A stretch of 42,039 bases of DNA from a virus (IMGVR_UViG_2740892429_000003); one strand, 5' to 3'. Shown: positions 1 through 42,039, numbered from the stretch's first letter. A program made the numbers and translations. Notes: generated by a model from the letters alone, not told the origin.

Positions 1-267
1 ATGCGCAGAAAAGAGTCAAACGTTAGCAGTTTGCCGGAGCTCACCAATTTTGAGGTAAGCTATTCTCTGGTTACCAATGAAGTTTACTTGTCTGCATCCT
101 TCACTGATAACATGGCCAGTATACCAAACTGGCCCTTACAAGAATTTCCGGATCAACTAATATGCATTTCTCGAGCAAAAGCTGTTGCCCTAATCGAAGA
201 GCTCCAGAAGACCATCAACTATATGGATGCAGGAATAGATCGAAGTTCAGGTAGCCTTCTCCAGTAG
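1..267 (+). CDS. Hypothetical protein, possibly 5'-truncated by window edge
   Basis: ORF starts at window edge; low-GC; no motif recognised. Confidence 0.25.
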   Translation: MRRKESNVSSLPELTNFEVSYSLVTNEVYLSASFTDNMASIPNWPLQEFPDQLICISRAKAVALIEELQKTINYMDAGIDRSSGSLLQ

Positions 268-329
268 CTGACGAGTTTTATAATAATTTGATATATATAT
301 ATATCGTTCAATATTAGCGAGTACTTATA

Positions 330-977
330 ATGAGTGAATTTAGTAATTTTTTAAATAGCATTCCTGGATGGTTATCCTCCTCCCTCACAGCTCTAGTTGG
401 TACTCTTATTGGCGGATGGTTTACCCTAAAAGGAGTTACCCAACAAGCTAAGCTGTCTAAAGTAGAGACAGAAAGAGAATCCCTTGAATTGCAACTTTCA
501 GTATTAAAAGGTGTTAAGGGAGAAGTTTTCACCCTAATCAATTTATATAATAAAAGGATGAAAACACACATTGATAATATCAAACCCGGACAGATGTTAA
601 TTCTCACTTTCCCTGTAGGGGATGATAATTTCACATTCTATGAGCAAAATGCGAATGTCATTGCAAAACTAAATGATTCTGCCAGAGACTCAATAATTAA
701 TATCTACACATATTCACGGTCATTAATACAATCATTTAAAGGAAACAACAAACTCATTGAGGATTATGAAAAAATCCTTATTGGTATGGCTGACAATAAC
801 AAAGATAAAACCATGTATAAGAGATTACATGATGAAAAAATAGATGTAATGGTAGATTATGCTCAAGGGATAAAAAATATTGATGCAGAGCTAAGAGATG
901 CAGTCAATAAGGGATTCAACATTATCGACCAAGAAGTAAAGTCGCTACAAATGAAATTAAACAAATTAGCTTCATAG
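330..977 (+). CDS. Membrane-anchored hypothetical protein (cargo gene at tail-fiber end)
   Basis: 215 aa; hydrophobic N-terminal helix (LSSSLTALVGTLIGGWFTL) then K/E-rich coiled-coil-like region; low-GC versus tail genes. Confidence 0.5.
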   Translation: MSEFSNFLNSIPGWLSSSLTALVGTLIGGWFTLKGVTQQAKLSKVETERESLELQLSVLKGVKGEVFTLINLYNKRMKTHIDNIKPGQMLILTFPVGDDNFTFYEQNANVIAKLNDSARDSIINIYTYSRSLIQSFKGNNKLIEDYEKILIGMADNNKDKTMYKRLHDEKIDVMVDYAQGIKNIDAELRDAVNKGFNIIDQEVKSLQMKLNKLAS

Positions 978-1023
978 AAATGCTCCACTCCCTGTTCAAG
1001 ATTTTTACAAGCTTATCAGCCAG

Positions 1024-1056
1024 CCGTGGCACGTTCTTGCATACGACGTGCCACGG
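1024..1056 (+). terminator. Perfect 11-bp inverted repeat hairpin (ccgtggcacgt / acgtgccacgg), possible terminator
   Basis: Arms at 1024..1034 and 1046..1056 with 11-nt loop, followed by short T-rich stretch; lies between ORF 330..977 and the invertase remnant. Confidence 0.4.
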
Positions 1057-1061
1057 TTTCA

Positions 1062-1187
1062 TTCATCTCCGACCGGAAACTTCTTATACAAAGTCGATAC
1101 GCCAACATCATAGATGATCGCCACTTTCTGGCGAGAAACTCCTGATGCAATTTGTCGTCCAGCCTGCGCCCATTGCTCCGGCGTGAG
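1062..1187 (-). pseudogene. C-terminal remnant of a serine-recombinase DNA invertase (Gin/Pin/Hin type)
   Basis: Minus-strand translation LTPEQWAQAGRQIASGVSRQKVAIIYDVGVSTLYKKFPVGDE-stop matches the invertase C-terminal HTH (Gin ...EWEQAGRLLAQGIPRKQVALIYDVALSTLYKKHP); no start codon, N-terminal catalytic domain absent; upstream sequence is low-GC insert. Confidence 0.6.
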
Positions 1188-1271: not shown

Positions 1272-1817
1272 ATGAATATTAGTGAACTTAAAAACTGTAT
1301 ACACTATGAAGTAATAGGTTATAAACGCCCTTTCTCCTGGCGAAAAGCAATTGTTCGCGCAATAAAACACAGAAGATTACGTTATTTATTTTGGTGGCGC
1401 ATAGCCAAATACCTTTTTGATAAAGGCGGATACTGTCGGAAGATTGCGAAAAAAATAGAACGTTTCATTCTTGATAAATATAATGTAACCGTTCCCTTAA
1501 CTGTAAATATTGGTAAAGGGTTCGACATATCTTATCTCAATGGCGTTGTTATCGGTCACAAAGTTACAATAGGTGAAAATTGTTCAATTAAGCCTGGAGT
1601 AACTATTGGACTTCGCGGTGAATTTAATGATATGGATATTGTCATAGGAAATAATGTAACCATTGGCTGTAACGCCACCATCCTTGGTGGCAAAGTGCAT
1701 ATAGGGAATAATGTAAAAATAGGAGCTCATGCATTGGTACTGCATGACATTCCTGATGACTCCACATTCATTACTAAATTTCACTCTGAAATTATTTATA
1801 ACTCATCTCACACATAA
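1272..1817 (+). CDS. Hexapeptide-repeat O-acetyltransferase (WcaB/CysE-like left-handed beta-helix)
   Basis: 181 aa with tandem hexapeptide repeats (VVIGHKVTIGENCSIKPGVTIG...IVIGNNVTIGCNATILGGKVHIGNNVKIGAHALV); very low GC; opposite orientation to flanking tail genes. Confidence 0.75.
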   Translation: MNISELKNCIHYEVIGYKRPFSWRKAIVRAIKHRRLRYLFWWRIAKYLFDKGGYCRKIAKKIERFILDKYNVTVPLTVNIGKGFDISYLNGVVIGHKVTIGENCSIKPGVTIGLRGEFNDMDIVIGNNVTIGCNATILGGKVHIGNNVKIGAHALVLHDIPDDSTFITKFHSEIIYNSSHT

Positions 1818-1827
1818 TTCCGTTTAA

Positions 1828-2400
1828 TCACAGCTCTGGCCATACGATATCCGGGGCTGTATTTATATCAATCCGACTCACTAATACCCGGTATTTTTTC
1901 CAGGAAGATAGCATCGATACTTCCTCATCAGTTGCCATTTCAAAATTAACAGCATCCTGCAGAATTGTTATGTTATCAGTCGCTTCCTGGATTAATCTTG
2001 CCTTTTTCTCTTCCGCCTCCCGGATCCGGAACAGTTTTTCTCCTTCTGCATCTTTCACCCAGGCTGTGCCGTTCCACTTCTGAAACTCCCCATCCGGCGA
2101 CAACCAGGTGACGTTTTCCGGTAACGGACCGAGTTCAGAAATAAATAATGCGTCCCCTGATGCCACGTCATAAACCGTTTTACCCCGATGATCTTCAACG
2201 AGATGCCACGATGACTCATCACTGTTGAAAACAGCCACGAAGCCAGCCGGAATATCTGGCGGTGCAATATAGGTACTGTTTGCAGGCAGACCTGTATGAG
2301 GTGGAATATATGCATCACCTTCACCAATAAATTCATTAGTTCCGGACAGCAGATTATAAATTTTTATGGTCCGTGATTGTTCACTCATTCTGAATGCCAT
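1828..2400 (-). CDS. Tail fiber assembly protein (Tfa, Mu U / P2 G-like)
   Basis: 190 aa; immediately downstream of tail fiber gene with overlapping stop/start; typical Tfa N-terminal sequence ([35 protein letters not shown]). Confidence 0.8.
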
Positions 2401-3515
2401 TATGCAAGCCTCACAATATAGTTAAATGCGATGTTTTTGACGGTGTTTTCCGCGTTACCAGCAGCGTTAACGGTGATGGTGTGTCCATGTGAACCAATCG
2501 CAACAGAGTGCGTATGTGCACCAATAGCGACAGTATGTGTATGCGCCCCAGCACTTGCTGCAGTACCTGATACTGAGTGGGTATGCGCGCCAGCAGAATT
2601 CGTTGCACCTAAGTGAGTTTGAGCAGAGTTCGACGAAGCTACTCTACCGGAGCTAACGTTAGCATTATCCCCCTGAGATATCGGATGCGTATGTGCACCT
2701 GCTGAAGCTGCTGTTCCGCTAACGCTATGGGTATGCGCACCAGTGTTATTCGTAGATTTAGTTCCATAATCAAACGATGATGTGTTTTTTGTCCCTAAAT
2801 CTGTATTTGAAGCACTGGCGCTGTGGGTGTGCGATTTAATGCCGTCTTGTTCCTGGCTAAGAACATCACGTCCACTTGCAGGCTTACCTTTGATTGTCCA
2901 GCCACGCATATCAGGGATCACGCCTGACGGATAAGCGGCTGCAAGTTTCGGGTATGCAGACTTATCAAAAGTCTGTCCCTGCATCAGAGCATAACCAGAT
3001 GGAACTGTATCTGATGGCCACGGGATCGGGGCACCTACAGGAAAGGTCGAATTATTTTCCAAACCAAGATATTTAAGGACATCAGCAACAGAGCTTTTTG
3101 CCAAAATATCTCGCCCAACCTGTGTCAGGTCAGCCAAATTAGCGGTATCTTGATTGGTAAAATACGGTAATTTGTTTTCGGATGCTGAAAGATTAGCAAG
3201 TGCGGTAAGTATGGCATTAATTCTCTGATAGTTCTTATCTAATGCAGACGACATTTTTGCGATAAAGCCGGCCTGATCGCCATCGTCCTGTACATCCAGT
3301 CCACTTTCATTTGCTGTATATTGTGCCATTGCAGATGCAATAAAGCTGGCCTGCCGAATAACCTTATTGACTTGCGCACTGGATGCTTTCCCTGCTGTAA
3401 ATCCGGATAAAAGCGCAGGCAACGCTTCCCATTCCTCCTGCGACATAACATTGGCATTTTTACCCGTTGCGAATGCTTTAAAGTCATTTTTTGCCATCAG
3501 AGTAATACTCCCCAT
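2400..3515 (-). CDS. Tail fiber protein with C-terminal His-X-His repeat tip
   Basis: 371 aa; C-terminus with repeated [19 protein letters not shown] units and terminal [12 protein letters not shown]; position after baseplate genes. Confidence 0.75.
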
Positions 3516-6535: not shown

Positions 6536-7108
6536 TTATTTAGGTTTCTTCCTACCATAAACAAACACTGTAGTTAATCCTACGAGATCTAAAGTAGCAA
6601 GAGTACCTGCGAACCAAGTGTTACCGCGATTAGCAAAAAACGCAGCCATTATAAGCACTACCATTGCAATGCAAAATCCCATCCATTGCCCACGTTTGTC
6701 GCGTGAAACCGCACCAAGTAATGCATCACTTTGCGTCTTATGCCTATGCTCTTGCTCTTTTTCGGTTAGCCTGAAAATTCTCTCAGCGCCGCCGGGTAAT
6801 ATTTGATTATATTGTAAGAGCATAGCAGGAGGTGGGAGTGGTCCCTGAAAAGACTCCTGCTGAAACATGGCAATAACCTTCGGGTTCTTAGAAACTCTCT
6901 CAAGAAGTTCAGGTGTTAACTTCGATTTTAGCTCAGGATCAAGGTTGGCAACTGCAGACAGCTTTTCCACTACTTCCTGAGACTCATCATATTCCGAGGA
7001 ATCAATATCTTCGTCGATACCATCCGAATCAGGAACGGCTTTTTGCGACGCTTTGTTTTCCTGATGCTTTTTGAGAACGGCCGCCTGCTTGCGGGGTTTT
7101 GAACTCAT
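6536..7108 (-). CDS. Cargo gene: inner-membrane protein with acidic N-terminal region and two C-terminal TM helices
   Basis: 190 aa; D/E/S-rich N-terminal half, C-terminal GFCIAMVVLIMAAFFA and LATLDLVGLTTVFVYG; lower GC than tail genes; start may lie further downstream. Confidence 0.45.
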   Translation of the reverse strand: MSSKPRKQAAVLKKHQENKASQKAVPDSDGIDEDIDSSEYDESQEVVEKLSAVANLDPELKSKLTPELLERVSKNPKVIAMFQQESFQGPLPPPAMLLQYNQILPGGAERIFRLTEKEQEHRHKTQSDALLGAVSRDKRGQWMGFCIAMVVLIMAAFFANRGNTWFAGTLATLDLVGLTTVFVYGRKKPK

Positions 7109-32370: not shown

Positions 32371-33873
32371 GTGTCAACTTTGAGAATCGGTATGGAAATC
32401 CAAGAGTTTGTAAGTCACTATAAAAACCACCCTGTTCTATTCATTGGAACAGGATTTAGCCTACGGTATCTAGAAAACTCATTTAGCTGGGATGGTCTTC
32501 TTTTGAGTGTCGCAATGGAACTAACCGGTAATGCTGAGTTTTACTACGATTTGAAAGCTGAAAGCCTAGAAGGTGACGACTATCGATATGATATCTTAGC
32601 TACAAAACTTGAAGATATTTTTAATAAAAAGCTGGCAGAAGATCGTAACGGTAAGTTCAAAGACATCAATGATGTTTTCTATGAGCACATGAAAAAAGGG
32701 AAAAAACTAAGTCGATTCAAAATTTATTTAACTTCAATACTTAAAGACCTAAAGATAAAAGAGTCAATGATGGAGGAAATAAACAGCTTAATAAAAACAA
32801 GAAAAAACATAGGCTCCATCATTACAACAAACTACGACCAACTCGTAGAGAACATCTTCGAATTTAACCCACTGATTGGTAACAACATTCTTTTAAGTAA
32901 CCCATACGGTTCAGTTTACAAAATACATGGCTGTGTTAGTGATCCTAACAACATAATTATCACAGGTGAAGACTACGCAAACTTCGACAATAAATATGAG
33001 TTAATTCGCGCTCAATTACTCTCAATATTCATACACAACCCTATCATATTTATAGGGTATAGTATTAGCGATAAAAACATTAAGTACTTATTAAAAACCA
33101 TATTCTCATACGTTGACTTAAATACCGAACTTGCAAAAAGGATAAAAGATAATTTTCTTTTGGTTGAATACGAAAAAGACAGCATGTCAACTGAAATTAC
33201 GGAGCATGACATAGATATAGAAGGCATGTCTATCATAAGAATAAACAAAATAAAAACAAACAATTACAAAGCTGTATATGATGCCATCTCGGGACTAGTT
33301 TTGCCAGTATCCGCAATGGACATAAGAAAGGTTCAAAAAGTTTGGAGTACCATCAAAAGTGGTGGTGAGATAAAGGTTAAAATTACAGAAAATTTAGATG
33401 AACTTCGCAATGATGAAATGGTCATTGCTGTTGGTTCAGAAAGAACCGTACAATATGTTTATCAAACAAAATCTGAAATGATACAGAACTATTTTAAAAT
33501 AGTTGACGAAGCAAACTCTCAGCTTATCGCATTACTGAATAAGCAAACTATAGCTAATAGCGAACACTTTCCAATATACGCTTTTAGTTCTATCTGCCCT
33601 GAACTAGAAAATACCGAGACATACAGAAAACGGCAGCTAGATAAAATCATTGGTAACCTTTCTCGAATTAAAACATGTAAGAGTGATGCTGTGTCTATTG
33701 ATGAAATACTAAAAGAAACGAAAGAGTATAAAGTTGCTAACACGATTATGTATTGCGTACTAAACGATACTATTTCATTGAAACAACTACGAGATTATTT
33801 AACAAAACCAGGGCATAAAATTGATACCCAATACAGGCGACTTTTATGCTTGTATGATTATTTATCATATTAA
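32371..33873 (+). CDS. SIR2-family (SIR2_2 / ThsA-like NADase motif) protein with uncharacterised C-terminal domain; candidate single-gene defence cargo
   Basis: 500 aa; GTG start with GAGG SD; motifs GTGFS (26-30), TTNYD (152-156), KIHG (184-187), FIGYS (227-231); very low GC; flanked by hairpins 32295..32315 and 33899..33921. Confidence 0.8.
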   Translation: MSTLRIGMEIQEFVSHYKNHPVLFIGTGFSLRYLENSFSWDGLLLSVAMELTGNAEFYYDLKAESLEGDDYRYDILATKLEDIFNKKLAEDRNGKFKDINDVFYEHMKKGKKLSRFKIYLTSILKDLKIKESMMEEINSLIKTRKNIGSIITTNYDQLVENIFEFNPLIGNNILLSNPYGSVYKIHGCVSDPNNIIITGEDYANFDNKYELIRAQLLSIFIHNPIIFIGYSISDKNIKYLLKTIFSYVDLNTELAKRIKDNFLLVEYEKDSMSTEITEHDIDIEGMSIIRINKIKTNNYKAVYDAISGLVLPVSAMDIRKVQKVWSTIKSGGEIKVKITENLDELRNDEMVIAVGSERTVQYVYQTKSEMIQNYFKIVDEANSQLIALLNKQTIANSEHFPIYAFSSICPELENTETYRKRQLDKIIGNLSRIKTCKSDAVSIDEILKETKEYKVANTIMYCVLNDTISLKQLRDYLTKPGHKIDTQYRRLLCLYDYLSY

Positions 33874-39973: not shown

Positions 39974-40170
39974 GCGAGAAACCCGACGATTTACTCACCC
40001 CAGATGAAGTATGCCAAAAGTTAGGTATTACACCGAAAACGCTATGTGAGTGGAATATTAAGCATCGTCATCGGGCTATCCTGGCACCAATTCGTTTCAG
40101 TGCAAAAGTAGTTCGTTATGAGCGCCGAAATGTCGACGCTTTTATTCAAAAGTGTCGCAGCCAGTATTAA
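39970..40170 (+). CDS. AlpA-like HTH regulator / putative excisionase
   Basis: 66 aa; LLTPDEVCQKLGITPKTLCEW...VVRYERRNVDAFI pattern; adjacent and convergent to integrase. Confidence 0.6.
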   Translation: MSEKPDDLLTPDEVCQKLGITPKTLCEWNIKHRHRAILAPIRFSAKVVRYERRNVDAFIQKCRSQY

Positions 40171-41570
40171 CCTCGCCGCCGTAGCAATGCAACCTGCGCA
40201 AGTATGCTCCGCTCGTGAGCCTCGAAAGCTTCGCGCTTTAACGCAATCTCTTCCTGTAAAATCTCATCAGAAAAGTCGTAATGTTCTGCCATCGGGTCAT
40301 CTGACTTGCTGGAGTGGTGAAGGCAAAGGAGGCTGATTTCCCTTCGGTCTGATCGGGAATAGCCTCTTTCCTTCATCAAGGCAATAACATTGCTCTTAAG
40401 GAATTTACGGCACATCGTATTAAATGCACCGTCTTTCCCTTTAACAGTCCCATCATGTTTTATTCCTTTTACAGCCCCGTCCGGGCTGTATGTTTTCACC
40501 AGCTTATCCAGTGATCGTTTTGAAAATGGCTGCATTGGATCACGTGGCTGCAAAAATACATAATCCCTGTTGCACTCAGGAACTGAATCACGCCAGGCTT
40601 TCTGCTCGTCGATAATCCGCCGGATCTCAGGCGTTATCGGCAGGCGGAAAGCCTTTTGTGTTTTCATAGCCCCTCGCATGCCGATAACCCCTTCCGGATA
40701 AACAATTTCACCAGCCTCCTCGTGAACGTAGTCCCAGCGCAGGTTATGGACATTAATCGGACGAACGCCAGTGATGATCATGAAGCGAACAGCATTCTTC
40801 TGGTGTACAGAGGTGCAGGCAGCAACATTGAGCCAGAGTCGGGCGATTGATTCAATATCGGTAAAAAGCCGTGTGGGGGTAGGTTTCTGTACGCGGGAGG
40901 AAACATAATCATCTGGCAGATTGGCGGCAACATTGCGGCCGTTGCAAAGAATAGGTGCGCAGAACTTCCAGAACCGACGGAGCTCGGCAAACAACTCCAG
41001 GGCGTTATTGTTCGAGCGAGTGGCGATCCACTCGTCCAGCACTTCCACCAGCCGATTGTATGTTACGTCGCTGAACACCTCACGCTCGCCGAACGTTGCT
41101 TTAATCCGGTCGATACGCACCCCGTAGGTTGTGAAACTGTCCGGGCTCAGCTTCTGCCGGGCGACTTTGGCTTTGAGGTCATCCCGGTACATTTCCAGCG
41201 CTGCATGTACTGACTCTGCCCGCAAGCCACAGTCAGCCATACCTAGCGCTTTTTCGCGCGCCAGCTGGATAGCGAGCTCCGGCCACTCGCCGAGCTTTTT
41301 ACCTTTGAGGCCCATCTTTTTTGGAAACTCGGCGTAAAATGTAACCTTACCGGCTTTGCTGAAATCGATACGGAGATAGTTCTCTTTTTCGTATTTGGAA
41401 CGGCGAGCCACGCCGGAAGCAGCGAGGATGATTTTGGCGGCAGCAACACAGATTTTCATGTGTGCGCTGGTATAGGGGGGTTTACAGGCGTCCCATTTTT
41501 CAGATGCGGCTAAAACATCGTCATTATTGGGGCTATCCGGATTATGTGTTACAGTGCGCGGCATTCTCAA
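40167..41570 (-). CDS. Tyrosine integrase
   Basis: Up to 467 aa; C-terminal catalytic region with HxxR-like and Tyr motifs (LCLHHS...AEHY); true start probably an internal Met (e.g. MKICVAAAK). Confidence 0.75.
   Translation of the reverse strand: MRMPRTVTHNPDSPNNDDVLAASEKWDACKPPYTSAHMKICVAAAKIILAASGVARRSKYEKENYLRIDFSKAGKVTFYAEFPKKMGLKGKKLGEWPELAIQLAREKALGMADCGLRAESVHAALEMYRDDLKAKVARQKLSPDSFTTYGVRIDRIKATFGEREVFSDVTYNRLVEVLDEWIATRSNNNALELFAELRRFWKFCAPILCNGRNVAANLPDDYVSSRVQKPTPTRLFTDIESIARLWLNVAACTSVHQKNAVRFMIITGVRPINVHNLRWDYVHEEAGEIVYPEGVIGMRGAMKTQKAFRLPITPEIRRIIDEQKAWRDSVPECNRDYVFLQPRDPMQPFSKRSLDKLVKTYSPDGAVKGIKHDGTVKGKDGAFNTMCRKFLKSNVIALMKERGYSRSDRREISLLCLHHSSKSDDPMAEHYDFSDEILQEEIALKREAFEAHERSILAQVALLRRRG

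Positions 41571-41769: not shown

Positions 41770-42039
<270 letters not shown>

What the first reader, a model, noticed from the sequence alone, without database searches (positions are those of the whole stretch)
270..1000. Membrane-anchored coiled-coil protein at the prophage tail-fiber end
ORF 330..977 (215 aa) has one N-terminal transmembrane helix followed by a long K/E/N-rich, probably coiled-coil, domain, in very low-GC DNA preceded by an (AT)7 tract (291..304). It occupies the position beyond the former inversion module where Mu-like phages carry accessory genes such as mom. The architecture fits a membrane-tethered exclusion or abortive-infection factor, but nothing is recognisable by motif.
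Basis: inference. Interest (0 to 1): 0.4.

Follow-up and report, generated by a model that had tools for sequence, protein, structure and literature searches.

The report
Orphan membrane protein in prophage cargo slot
A real, strongly conserved gene for a small inner-membrane protein of an unnamed family sits in a swappable cargo slot at the end of an E. coli prophage; it looks like an anti-phage gene, but an allele from this same locus protected against none of 24 phages in a published test, so its function is still open.

Summary
ORF 330..977 is a genuine gene (dN/dS 0.04-0.15). It encodes a 215-aa protein with one N-terminal transmembrane helix (N-out/C-in) and a cytoplasmic three-helix bundle, not an extended coiled coil. 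It belongs to a large unnamed family: 684 clusters at 50% identity, spread over several bacterial phyla, with no match in Pfam, NCBIfam, PHROG, PADLOC or solved structures.

The prophage is not Mu-like. It has a tyrosine integrase and is inserted into the 5' end of yfhL. The gene fills a variable cargo slot between an 88-aa terminal ORF and a decayed pin invertase gene. Sister prophages carry an unrelated 281-aa gene in the same slot.

Homologs are always solo genes. They sit in typical accessory or defence positions: the P4-satellite int-psu hotspot, just downstream of a cI-like repressor, and next to PifA-like, Mrr, TIR, HigBA or CcdAB genes.

DefensePredictor (Science 2026) scored an allele as defensive (log-odds 7.5). 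That allele was cloned from this locus (forward primer = window 126-149) and protected against none of 24 phages.

Best reading (about 0.45): a narrow-spectrum, membrane-anchored exclusion or abortive-infection factor. The mechanism is inferred.

Side finding: a conserved hairpin "boundary element" (core GTGCCAGAAGCGGAWGTT) flanks homologs and other hotspot cargo.

The parts
1..267 (+). 88-aa ORF, the terminal gene of the prophage. It is the conserved left flank of the cargo slot.
   Evidence: It matches phrog_17793 (unknown function) at E 1.3e-44. Its DNA is present in 124 of 5426 E. coli genomes, against 80 for the 215-aa gene. It lies inside the prophage: the att core is 223 nt to the left of window position 1.
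284..329 (+). Leader and putative promoter region of the gene, including the (AT)7 tract at 291..304. The left junction of the cargo slot is at about 283/284.
   Evidence: Homology with sister prophages that carry a different cargo stops at about 283. About 55 nt of leader (TTTGATATAT...TTATAATG) is shared with homologs in other genera, where the AT tract position holds extended -10-like motifs. The promoter-like hits are not above the shuffle expectation. The (AT)n length varies from 5 to 7 among alleles.
330..977 (+). The gene: a 215-aa single-pass membrane protein of an unnamed family (WP_001288815.1).
   Evidence: The ORF is listed and annotated 'hypothetical protein' in RefSeq. It has 216 close homologs and 684 family clusters. 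dN/dS is 0.04-0.15.
360..428 (+). Transmembrane helix, residues about 11-33, with small-residue (glycine-zipper-like) spacing: A21, G24, G28, G29.
   Evidence: Hydropathy and flanking charges were computed. G24, G28 and G29 are invariant in close homologs, and G24 is at least 90% conserved in the superfamily.
429..974 (+). Predicted cytoplasmic domain: a three-helix bundle (residues 25-82, 116-154, 160-214) with a conserved loop at 83-115 (FPVGDDNFTFYEQNA).
   Evidence: The AlphaFold2 model has pLDDT 81 and pTM 0.72. Superfamily-conserved residues are E65, Y73, F101, Y126, N139, N140 and Y177. Topology rests on K+R counts of 0.15-0.33 before the helix against 3.2-4.0 after it, and on distant members that have a signal peptide ahead of the helix.
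1022..1058 (.). Strong hairpin between the convergent gene and the pin remnant. It is a likely bidirectional terminator and the right edge of the cargo slot.
   Evidence: Folding energy is -24.8 kcal/mol, z = -4.3, and 0 of 200 shuffles fold as well. The simple terminator scan missed it because its 9-nt loop exceeds the scan's 8-nt limit.
1059..1187 (-). Remnant (C-terminal HTH part) of the pin/Gin-type DNA invertase gene.
   Evidence: RefSeq annotates it as a partial pseudogene. An intact pinE sits at the same place in MINF_1D. It is frameshifted in ETEC H10407.
1272..1817 (+). Neighbouring low-GC accessory gene: a hexapeptide-repeat acetyltransferase.
   Evidence: It matches Pfam Hexapep at 1.1e-13, phrog_2154 at 1.3e-78 and NCBIfam EpsC/CysE-like models below their cutoffs. 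Its G+C is 35%.
41809..41825 (.). 17-nt attachment-site core (AATTGTGATATGTGTGA) inside the start of yfhL. The second copy lies just outside the window, 223 nt to the left of position 1.
   Evidence: The direct repeat was found between L001 position 7778 and window position 41809. The left copy heads a short duplicated yfhL' start.
40167..41570 (-). Tyrosine integrase at the opposite prophage end.
   Evidence: The ORF is listed and annotated 'tyrosine-type recombinase/integrase'.

Best explanation
ORF 330..977 is an independently mobile, single-gene prophage cargo gene (a moron). Its product is anchored in the inner membrane by one N-terminal helix. About 10 residues lie outside, and a roughly 180-residue three-helix bundle lies in the cytoplasm.

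Most likely it is a narrow-spectrum anti-phage factor made in the lysogen. In this reading the cytoplasmic bundle recognises a component of one particular incoming or developing phage. Two conserved patches could do this: a membrane-distal aromatic/acidic tip (Y73, F101-N107, Y126-R130), and a mid-bundle polar cluster (K60, E65, N139, N140, Y177, Q179). The glycine-zipper transmembrane helices then assemble and disturb the membrane (abortive infection) or the genome-entry site (exclusion).

Shown:
- The gene is real and under strong purifying selection.
- The architecture.
- The solo organisation.
- Residence in a swappable cargo slot.
- Recurrent placement of homologs in defence or accessory hotspots of unrelated mobile elements.

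Inferred:
- The topology.
- Oligomerisation.
- Sensing.
- The anti-phage function itself.
For: - Real gene: dN/dS is 0.04-0.10 among most E. coli allele pairs and 0.09-0.19 between genera. It is intact and single-copy in all 80 E. coli genomes that carry it.
- Cargo slot: sister prophages at the same yfhH/yfhL site hold an unrelated 281-aa gene between the same flanks. G+C is 33% against 50% for the window.
- Solo gene: no shared neighbour in 21 contexts.
- Contexts of homologs:
  - P4-like satellite, between int and Mrr/Ogr-Delta, which is the published P4 defence hotspot (Rousset 2022, PMC9122126).
  - Lambdoid prophage, directly after the cI-like repressor and an HSDR_N gene.
  - Next to a PifA-like KAP NTPase, E 1.7e-65.
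  - Next to a TIR/ThsB-like protein.
  - Next to HigBA.
  - Next to CcdAB in an ICE.
  - Next to an integrase in a small capsid-encoding element.
  - In SSU5-like phage-plasmids, on the strand opposite its neighbours.
- Independent prediction: DefensePredictor log-odds 7.52 for allele WP_001288814.1, category 'structural defense homolog'.
- Architecture: AlphaFold2 model; invariant G24/G28/G29 in the helix; positive-inside charge bias, and signal-peptide-bearing relatives.
Against: - The same locus (forward primer = window 126-149) was cloned with 204 nt of upstream DNA on a pSC101 plasmid in MG1655. It was scored 'defensive = FALSE' against 24 diverse E. coli phages, in a screen where 45% of candidates validated.
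- tblastn found no homolog (E <= 1e-3) in 50,697 deposited phage records.
- Alphaproteobacterial family members sit among ABC-transporter and alcohol-dehydrogenase genes. The superfamily is therefore not confined to mobile or defence contexts.
- The transmembrane segment of this allele is only moderately hydrophobic.
- Promoter motifs are not above chance.
Confidence: 0.45

Rival explanations
1. It is a lysogenic-conversion or membrane-physiology factor unrelated to phage defence. It could be a membrane-anchored adaptor or sensor affecting envelope stress, transport or another host trait, carried as cargo because it benefits the host.
For: - The published phage challenge was negative.
- The superfamily occurs in several phyla.
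- Alphaproteobacterial MAG copies lie between oligopeptide ABC-transporter and Zn-dehydrogenase genes.
- In Enterobacter the gene is fixed at one chromosomal site, between panE and budR, in many genomes (P0016 on 700 contigs).
- The best fold resemblances are to sensor-type four-helix bundles such as the Tsr/Tar ligand-binding domain and DUF3829.
Against: - In Enterobacterales the gene is overwhelmingly on mobile elements and in hotspot positions beside restriction, toxin-antitoxin, PifA-like and TIR genes.
- Its distribution is patchy: 1.5% of E. coli genomes.
- No metabolic or regulatory partner is conserved.
Confidence: 0.3
2. It serves the prophage's own life cycle at the membrane, for example lysis timing (antiholin-like), control of DNA entry or exit, or immunity against its own kind only (homotypic superinfection exclusion).
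For: - It is a single-pass inner-membrane protein encoded by a prophage.
- In a Providencia prophage it sits immediately downstream of the repressor, where sieB/rex-type genes lie in lambdoid phages.
- The 24-phage panel would not have detected exclusion of the prophage's own relatives.
Against: - It is far from, and on the strand opposite to, the lysis cassette (holin/endolysin at about 23.1-24.5 kb, on the - strand).
- It occurs in ICEs, satellites and chromosomal islets that have no phage lysis or morphogenesis genes.
- It is replaceable by an unrelated gene in sister prophages.
Confidence: 0.12
3. It is a membrane toxin or addiction-type stabilisation gene (or an entry-exclusion factor against conjugative elements) that helps the carrying element persist.
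For: - It neighbours toxin-antitoxin pairs (HigBA, CcdAB, PemK/MazE) in several contexts.
- It is carried by an ICE and by phage-plasmids.
- The helix has glycine-zipper-like spacing, a pattern described in the literature for oligomerising, channel-forming transmembrane helices (own knowledge, not tested here).
Against: - No cognate antitoxin or partner is conserved.
- The gene was clonable and maintained alone on a plasmid in MG1655.
- At 215 aa with a large folded domain, it is unlike small hydrophobic type I toxins.
Confidence: 0.1
4. It is not a functional gene, only a chance ORF in AT-rich DNA.
For: It lies in low-GC DNA. An overlapping antisense ORF (314..634) also exists.
Against: - dN/dS is 0.04-0.15.
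- There are hundreds of full-length homologs at 60-75% identity with conserved motifs and a confident fold.
- The antisense ORF is conserved only where it overlaps the gene.
Confidence: 0.01

Closest known systems
Prophage morons / hotspot cargo genes (P2 Z/fun and tin-old loci; the P4 int-psu hotspot; Rousset et al. 2022, PMC9122126)
   Same: It is a low-GC, single-gene insert in a fixed slot, with alternative cargo in sister prophages. It is transcribed against the flow of the neighbouring structural genes and is bounded by a hairpin. A homolog sits in the P4 hotspot itself.
   Different: This prophage is neither P2- nor P4-like. The slot lies between a terminal 88-aa ORF and a decayed invertase. 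No function has been shown for the cargo.
Membrane-anchored superinfection-exclusion proteins (T4 Imm, P22 SieA, lambda/P22 SieB, lactococcal Sie2009, HK97 gp15). Comparison from own knowledge.
   Same: It is a small prophage-encoded inner-membrane protein in an accessory position. One homolog lies right after the repressor gene, as sieB and rex do.
   Different: There is no sequence similarity: Pfam and PHROG give no hit, SieB included. The bulk of the protein is predicted to be cytoplasmic. The family extends far beyond phages. No exclusion phenotype was seen in the one published test.
Transmembrane abortive-infection effectors with an N-terminal helix and a cytoplasmic helical domain (Cas13b-associated Csx28; CBASS/Pycsar TM effectors)
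Four-helix-bundle sensor domains (Tsr/Tar ligand-binding domain, DUF3829)
   Different: Sequence identity is only 10-11%, with no profile match. Those domains are periplasmic, lying between two helices or on lipoproteins. This one follows a single helix and is predicted to be cytoplasmic. It has three long helices plus a structured loop rather than four helices.
DefensePredictor candidate 'NADH' (WP_001288814.1; PMC13092281, Table S6)
   Same: It is the same locus. The gene is 648 nt, the WP numbers are adjacent (814, against 815, 820 and 821 found here), and the forward cloning primer is identical to window 126-149.
   Different: It is an allele from another E. coli strain. The reverse primer does not match any locus held here, so the downstream flank differs.

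Membership tests
Prophage moron / variable cargo slot | The same flanks hold different genes in related prophages. | tested here: met
   124 genomes share the left flank and 80 have this gene. In L137 and L138 an unrelated 281-aa ORF fills the slot. Homology breaks at window position about 283.
Prophage moron / variable cargo slot | Atypical base composition and its own transcription signals. | tested here: inconclusive
   G+C is 33% against 50% for the window. There is a strong hairpin downstream. Promoter-like motifs are not above the shuffle expectation. Expression could not be tested.
Known anti-phage defence families (PADLOC-DB 2.0) | A profile match to a protein of a described or candidate defence system. 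| tested here: not met
   The window protein gives 0 families. Among 58 distant relatives there is no recurrent hit.
Anti-phage defence gene (functional definition) | It reduces plating or plaque size of at least one phage when expressed in a sensitive host. | not testable with these tools
   Published test of an allele from this locus: pCV1-NADH in MG1655, 24 phages, 'defensive = FALSE' (PMC13092281 Table S6 and S11).
Anti-phage defence gene (genomic definition) | Recurrent co-location with known defence genes or hotspots. | tested here: met
   Contexts include the P4 hotspot with Mrr, a PifA-like gene, ThsB-like TIR and the position after cI with an HSDR_N gene. Among 119 neighbours from 32 contexts there are hits to REase_I, PifA, SoFic, ThsB, PbeA, AbiLi and PD-Lambda-2_B. 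The assessment is qualitative, with no background control.
Superinfection exclusion proteins (SieB, Imm and others) | Sequence membership in the family. | tested here: not met
   There is no Pfam, PHROG or NCBIfam hit at or above any curated cutoff, and none in PHROG below E 0.05.
Superinfection exclusion proteins (SieB, Imm and others) | Blocks genome entry or early development of a superinfecting phage. | not testable with these tools
   This needs infection assays.
   AlphaFold2 predicts a compact antiparallel three-helix bundle with a 33-residue structured loop, with pLDDT above 90 over most of residues 40-215. The monomer model cannot exclude additional inter-chain packing.
Mu-like transposable phage accessory region (mom position) | The host phage is Mu-like (transposase genes, random insertion). 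| tested here: not met
   The prophage has a tyrosine integrase, a LexA/CI-type repressor, a Q antiterminator, its own DNA polymerase and a VapE domain protein. It occupies the same yfhH/yfhL site in every locus inspected and has a 17-nt att core.
Csx28-like TM pore effectors | Specific structural similarity and an associated sensor system. | tested here: not met
Integron gene cassette (for the homolog loci and their flanking hairpin element) | An attC site with R'' (RYYYAAC) and R' (GTTRRRY) boxes, and an integron integrase. | tested here: inconclusive
   Hairpins are present and homology often ends at ...GTT. R' fits in some copies (GTTAAAC) but not in others (GTTGCTA, GTTACTC). R'' does not fit. 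No IntI gene was seen in any locus. The attC covariance model could not be run. The window copy lacks the element.

The most novel reading that the evidence does not exclude
The 215-aa protein founds a new, widespread class of one-gene, membrane-anchored phage-exclusion factors whose targets were simply absent from the 24-phage panel.

In addition, genes of this kind are shuffled between P2, P4, lambdoid and other prophages, ICEs and islands as cassettes delimited by a conserved hairpin element with the core GTGCCAGAAGCGGAWGTT. That would amount to an unrecognised, integron-like, site-directed exchange system for defence cargo. Published hotspot studies leave the exchange mechanism open (PMC9122126, PMC13586616).
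Probability: 0.15. Interest if true: 0.75.

Novelty: new member of a known kind. Interest (0 to 1): 0.38.

Why it matters
If the protein is an exclusion or abortive-infection factor, it adds a very compact (215 aa, one gene) membrane-based mechanism. It would also give a name and a function to a family of at least 684 sequence clusters that currently has no annotation at all.

The negative published screen makes it a useful test case for how many 'failed' defence predictions are narrow-spectrum rather than wrong.

The flanking boundary element, if it marks exchange points, would bear on an open question: how defence cargo is swapped so quickly and cleanly in phage and satellite hotspots.

If the protein is not defensive, it is an ordinary prophage accessory gene of unknown role.

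Tried and rejected
Searches that found nothing:
- Pfam, NCBIfam, PHROGs and PADLOC on the protein and on 58 distant relatives gave nothing recurrent.
- PDB sequence and profile searches found nothing.
- Foldseek against the PDB and against viral BFVD gave nothing at E below 0.03.
- The afdb50 library was unavailable.
- tblastn against 50,697 phage records gave no hit.
- A literature search for WP_001288815 and WP_001288820 gave no hit. The related accession WP_001288814 was found only in a supplement.

Partner gene:
- A conserved partner was looked for in 21 contexts and none was found.
- A 215-aa ORF next to a boundary element in L134 turned out not to be a homolog.

Boundary element:
- Integron attC reading: partly fitting, not accepted.
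- Known RNA family: no Rfam hit.
- Single conserved secondary structure: rejected, because the predicted folds differ between copies.
- No paper holds the core 16-mers.
- Nilsson et al. 2004 and Odegrip et al. 2006 are not held.

Technical failures:
- The search for related loci with the distant alignments failed because no stretch was conserved enough. It was replaced by a degenerate DNA pattern for QDYFTVY..N.

Rejected on evidence:
- The Mu-like reading.
- The spurious-ORF reading.

Full report
**What is in the sequence**

ORF 330..977 (+) is present as described: ATG start, 215 aa. (AT)7 lies at 291..304. The ORF has 33.3% G+C, against 49.7% for the window and 51% for the structural genes.

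The window is a 100% match to E. coli 21KM1392 (NZ_CP151067.1). There the ORF is annotated 'hypothetical protein' WP_001288815.1.

To its right lie:
- a 129-nt remnant of a pin-type invertase gene (1059..1187, -). This gene is intact as pinE in strain MINF_1D and frameshifted in ETEC H10407;
- a hexapeptide acetyltransferase gene;
- the tail-fibre assembly and tail-fibre genes.

**The prophage is not Mu-like**

The window is essentially one whole prophage. It carries a tyrosine integrase (40167..41570, -), a LexA/CI-type repressor, a Q antiterminator, a lambda-type holin, its own DNA polymerase and a VapE domain protein.

It is inserted into the 5' end of yfhL. A 17-nt core (AATTGTGATATGTGTGA) occurs at window 41809-41825 and again 223 nt to the left of window position 1. 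That left copy heads a short duplicated yfhL' start. ORF 330..977 is therefore inside the prophage, as the second gene from its end. In every E. coli locus inspected it lies next to yfhH.

**The gene is real**

- It is intact and single-copy in 80 of 5426 complete E. coli genomes.
- Close homologs number 216. They share 60-75% identity, are 215-223 aa long, come from many Enterobacterales genera, and are all unnamed.
- Nei-Gojobori dN/dS is 0.04-0.10 among most E. coli allele pairs and 0.09-0.19 between genera.
- The overlapping antisense ORF (314..634) is conserved only where it overlaps the gene.

**The protein**

A profile search of 1.84 billion representative proteins found 684 clusters at E <= 1e-3 and 261 at E <= 1e-10. 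Nearly all are 185-230 aa with the same layout. A degenerate-pattern scan plus a family HMM placed members in MAGs of Nitrospirota, Planctomycetota, Verrucomicrobiota, Alphaproteobacteria and Burkholderiaceae.

Across the superfamily the conserved positions are G24, E65, Y73, F101, Y126, N139, N140 and Y177. The conserved motifs are YPxxQDYFTVYxxNA and TYxxAKxLIDSxxxNN.

*Transmembrane helix.* The N-terminal hydrophobic segment scores only 1.35 (Kyte-Doolittle, 19 aa) in this allele. The family medians are 1.76 and 1.99, and 45/48 and 51/58 members reach 1.6 or more. There is no second such segment, except in members that have an added signal peptide.

*Topology.* K+R counts are 0.15-0.33 before the helix and 3.2-4.0 after it. 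Several distant members carry a signal peptide or lipobox plus 40-100 residues ahead of the helix. Both points indicate N-out/C-in, so the conserved domain is cytoplasmic. This is inference, not measurement.

*Fold.* AlphaFold2 on 48 homologs gave pLDDT 81 and pTM 0.72. It predicts one long helix running out of the membrane (residues 25-82), a structured conserved loop (83-115), and two further long helices (116-154, 160-214). This is a compact three-helix bundle rather than a coiled-coil stalk.

*Conserved patches.* From helix register alone I infer two:
- a membrane-distal tip: Y73, F101-N107, Y126-R130;
- a mid-bundle polar cluster: K60, E65, N139, N140, Y177, Q179.

*No named relative.* None of the following gave a specific match:
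- Pfam, NCBIfam, PHROGs and PADLOC, for the protein or for 58 distant members;
- PDB by sequence or by profile;
- Foldseek against the PDB and against viral structures.

**Cargo slot**

The 88-aa ORF region (window 1..282) occurs in 124 E. coli genomes, but the 215-aa gene occurs in only 80. In sister prophages at the same site (L137, L138) an unrelated 281-aa ORF with no family match lies between the same 88-aa ORF and the pin remnant. Homology with the window stops at about 283/284.

On the right, a strong hairpin (1022-1058; -24.8 kcal/mol, z -4.3) separates the gene from the convergent pin remnant.

The (AT)n tract is length-polymorphic, with n = 5-7. It occupies the place where homologs in other genera have extended -10-like motifs. 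Promoter-like matches are not above chance.

**Contexts elsewhere**

No neighbour is shared across 21 contexts. The contexts are:
- Enterobacter: a chromosomal islet beside HigBA.
- Dickeya: an ICE, beside CcdAB and IS110.
- Providencia: a lambdoid prophage, directly after the cI-like repressor and an HSDR_N gene.
- Citrobacter: a prophage end, after tail fibre, acetyltransferase, DinI, UmuDC and SRAP genes.
- Serratia: a P4-like satellite, confirmed by tmRNA att, isrK/C4, Ogr-Delta and a primase gene. The homolog lies between int and an Mrr-type nuclease, which is the P4 defence hotspot of Rousset et al. 2022.
- Klebsiella: next to an integrase in a small capsid-encoding element.
- A metagenomic relative lies beside a TIR/ThsB-like gene and a DUF5677 gene.
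- An IMG/VR prophage carries it beside a PifA-like KAP NTPase, E 1.7e-65.
- SSU5-like phage-plasmids carry 31%-identical relatives on the strand opposite their neighbours.
- Alphaproteobacterial copies lie among ABC-transporter and dehydrogenase genes instead.

**Published evidence**

Table S6 of the DefensePredictor paper (PMC13092281) lists candidate 'NADH'. It is a 648-nt 'hypothetical protein', WP_001288814.1, with log-odds 7.52 and category 'structural defense homolog', scored 'defensive = FALSE'.

Three things show that this candidate is the same locus:
- the WP number is adjacent to those of alleles found here: 815, 820 and 821;
- the gene length is the same;
- the forward cloning primer is identical to window 126-149.

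The transcription unit was cloned with its upstream region on a promoterless pSC101 vector in MG1655. It was challenged with 24 phages, and 42 of the 94 candidates in that screen validated. The authors note that failures may reflect panel breadth, expression or system boundaries.

**Interpretation**

The evidence firmly supports a mobile, single-gene cargo encoding a conserved single-pass membrane protein.

Function is open. Context and the independent prediction favour a narrow-spectrum exclusion or abortive-infection factor. I put that at about 0.45. In the mechanism sketched, the cytoplasmic bundle acts as sensor and the glycine-zipper helix as effector. That mechanism is inferred and untested.

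A non-defence membrane role (0.30) is kept alive by the negative screen and by the housekeeping contexts in other phyla. Smaller weights go to a role in the phage's own life cycle and to an addiction or toxin role. The chance-ORF reading is refuted.

**Side finding**

Homologs in Dickeya, Enterobacter, Citrobacter and Providencia are preceded by an 80-100-nt imperfect palindrome. It ends in an invariant core, GTGCCAGAAGCGGA[A/T]GTT, and lies either about 170 nt or about 30 nt upstream. The first roughly 25 nt of another copy follow directly after the stop codon.

- The exact 18-mer occurs in 56 IMG/VR contigs. Identical left parts continue into different sequences right after ...GTT.
- The element is in 482 of 5426 E. 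coli genomes, at 1-3 copies per genome, and is never annotated.
- It lies in the P2 Z/fun-type hotspot beside a DUF6650 gene.
- It lies between an HNH gene and a restriction endonuclease next to an integrase.
- It lies beside a type I restriction-modification system.
- It lies on the cos/psu side of the P4 hotspot.
- The cloning primers of two validated systems, DS-3 and DS-33, lie within it.
- It has no Rfam match.
- It has no single conserved fold.
- The core sequence is in no held paper.
- It fits the integron attC consensus only partly.

The window copy of the gene has lost the element.

Noticed in passing
L009 7775-7848; L014 ~6905-6975; L020 8905-8960; L136 4501-4579; L134 4501-4614; 56 IMG/VR loci L078-L133. 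Absent from the window.: A conserved 80-100-nt imperfect-palindrome 'boundary element' with the invariant core GTGCCAGAAGCGGA[A/T]GTT flanks homologs of the gene and other cargo. Much of that cargo is defence genes, in P2, P4 and lambdoid prophage hotspots and in genomic islands. Homology between loci often ends exactly after ...GTT. The element is in 482 of 5426 E. coli genomes and is never annotated. It has no Rfam match and its core sequence appears in no held paper. Cloning primers of the validated systems DS-3 and DS-33 lie in it.
   Followed up: partly
window 32371..33873 (+): A SIR2-family gene sits in a second low-GC island (31-34% G+C at 32.5-34 kb), between the replication genes. It matches the PADLOC candidate PDC-S25 at E 5e-158 and ThsA-type SIR2 models. 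It is a second likely defence cargo of the same prophage.
   Followed up: partly
window 1272..1817 (+); also L017 2756..3265: A low-GC hexapeptide-repeat acetyltransferase (phrog_2154; EpsC/CysE/WcaB-like, below family cutoffs) lies right after the tail-fibre assembly gene. A similar gene sits at the equivalent position in the Citrobacter prophage that carries a homolog. It may be a surface-polysaccharide (serotype-converting) acetyltransferase.
   Followed up: no
window 41779..42039 and L001 7745..7800: The prophage integrates into the 5' end of the ferredoxin gene yfhL. A 17-nt core is duplicated, and a short yfhL' start ([18 protein letters not shown]) is left at the other junction.
   Followed up: yes
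window 291..304: The (AT)n tract 26 nt upstream of the start codon is length-polymorphic among E. coli alleles: n = 5, 6 or 7 in nine loci. Since it lies in the putative promoter or leader, this could modulate expression.
   Followed up: partly
L137 3069..3914; L138 3069..3914: The alternative cargo in the same slot of sister prophages is a 281-aa protein (WP_001039127.1) with no Pfam or PADLOC match.
   Followed up: partly
window 6536..7108 (-): A DUF2335 'predicted membrane protein' gene is inserted between the baseplate spike gene and the upstream tail genes, in a dip of G+C (42-44% at 6.5-7.5 kb). It is another possible moron inside the tail module.
   Followed up: no
window 2400..3515 (-): The tail-fibre ORF is intact in the window (371 aa, with Collar domain and His-rich GAHTHS fibre repeats). 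RefSeq nevertheless annotates only a partial pseudogene there.
   Followed up: no
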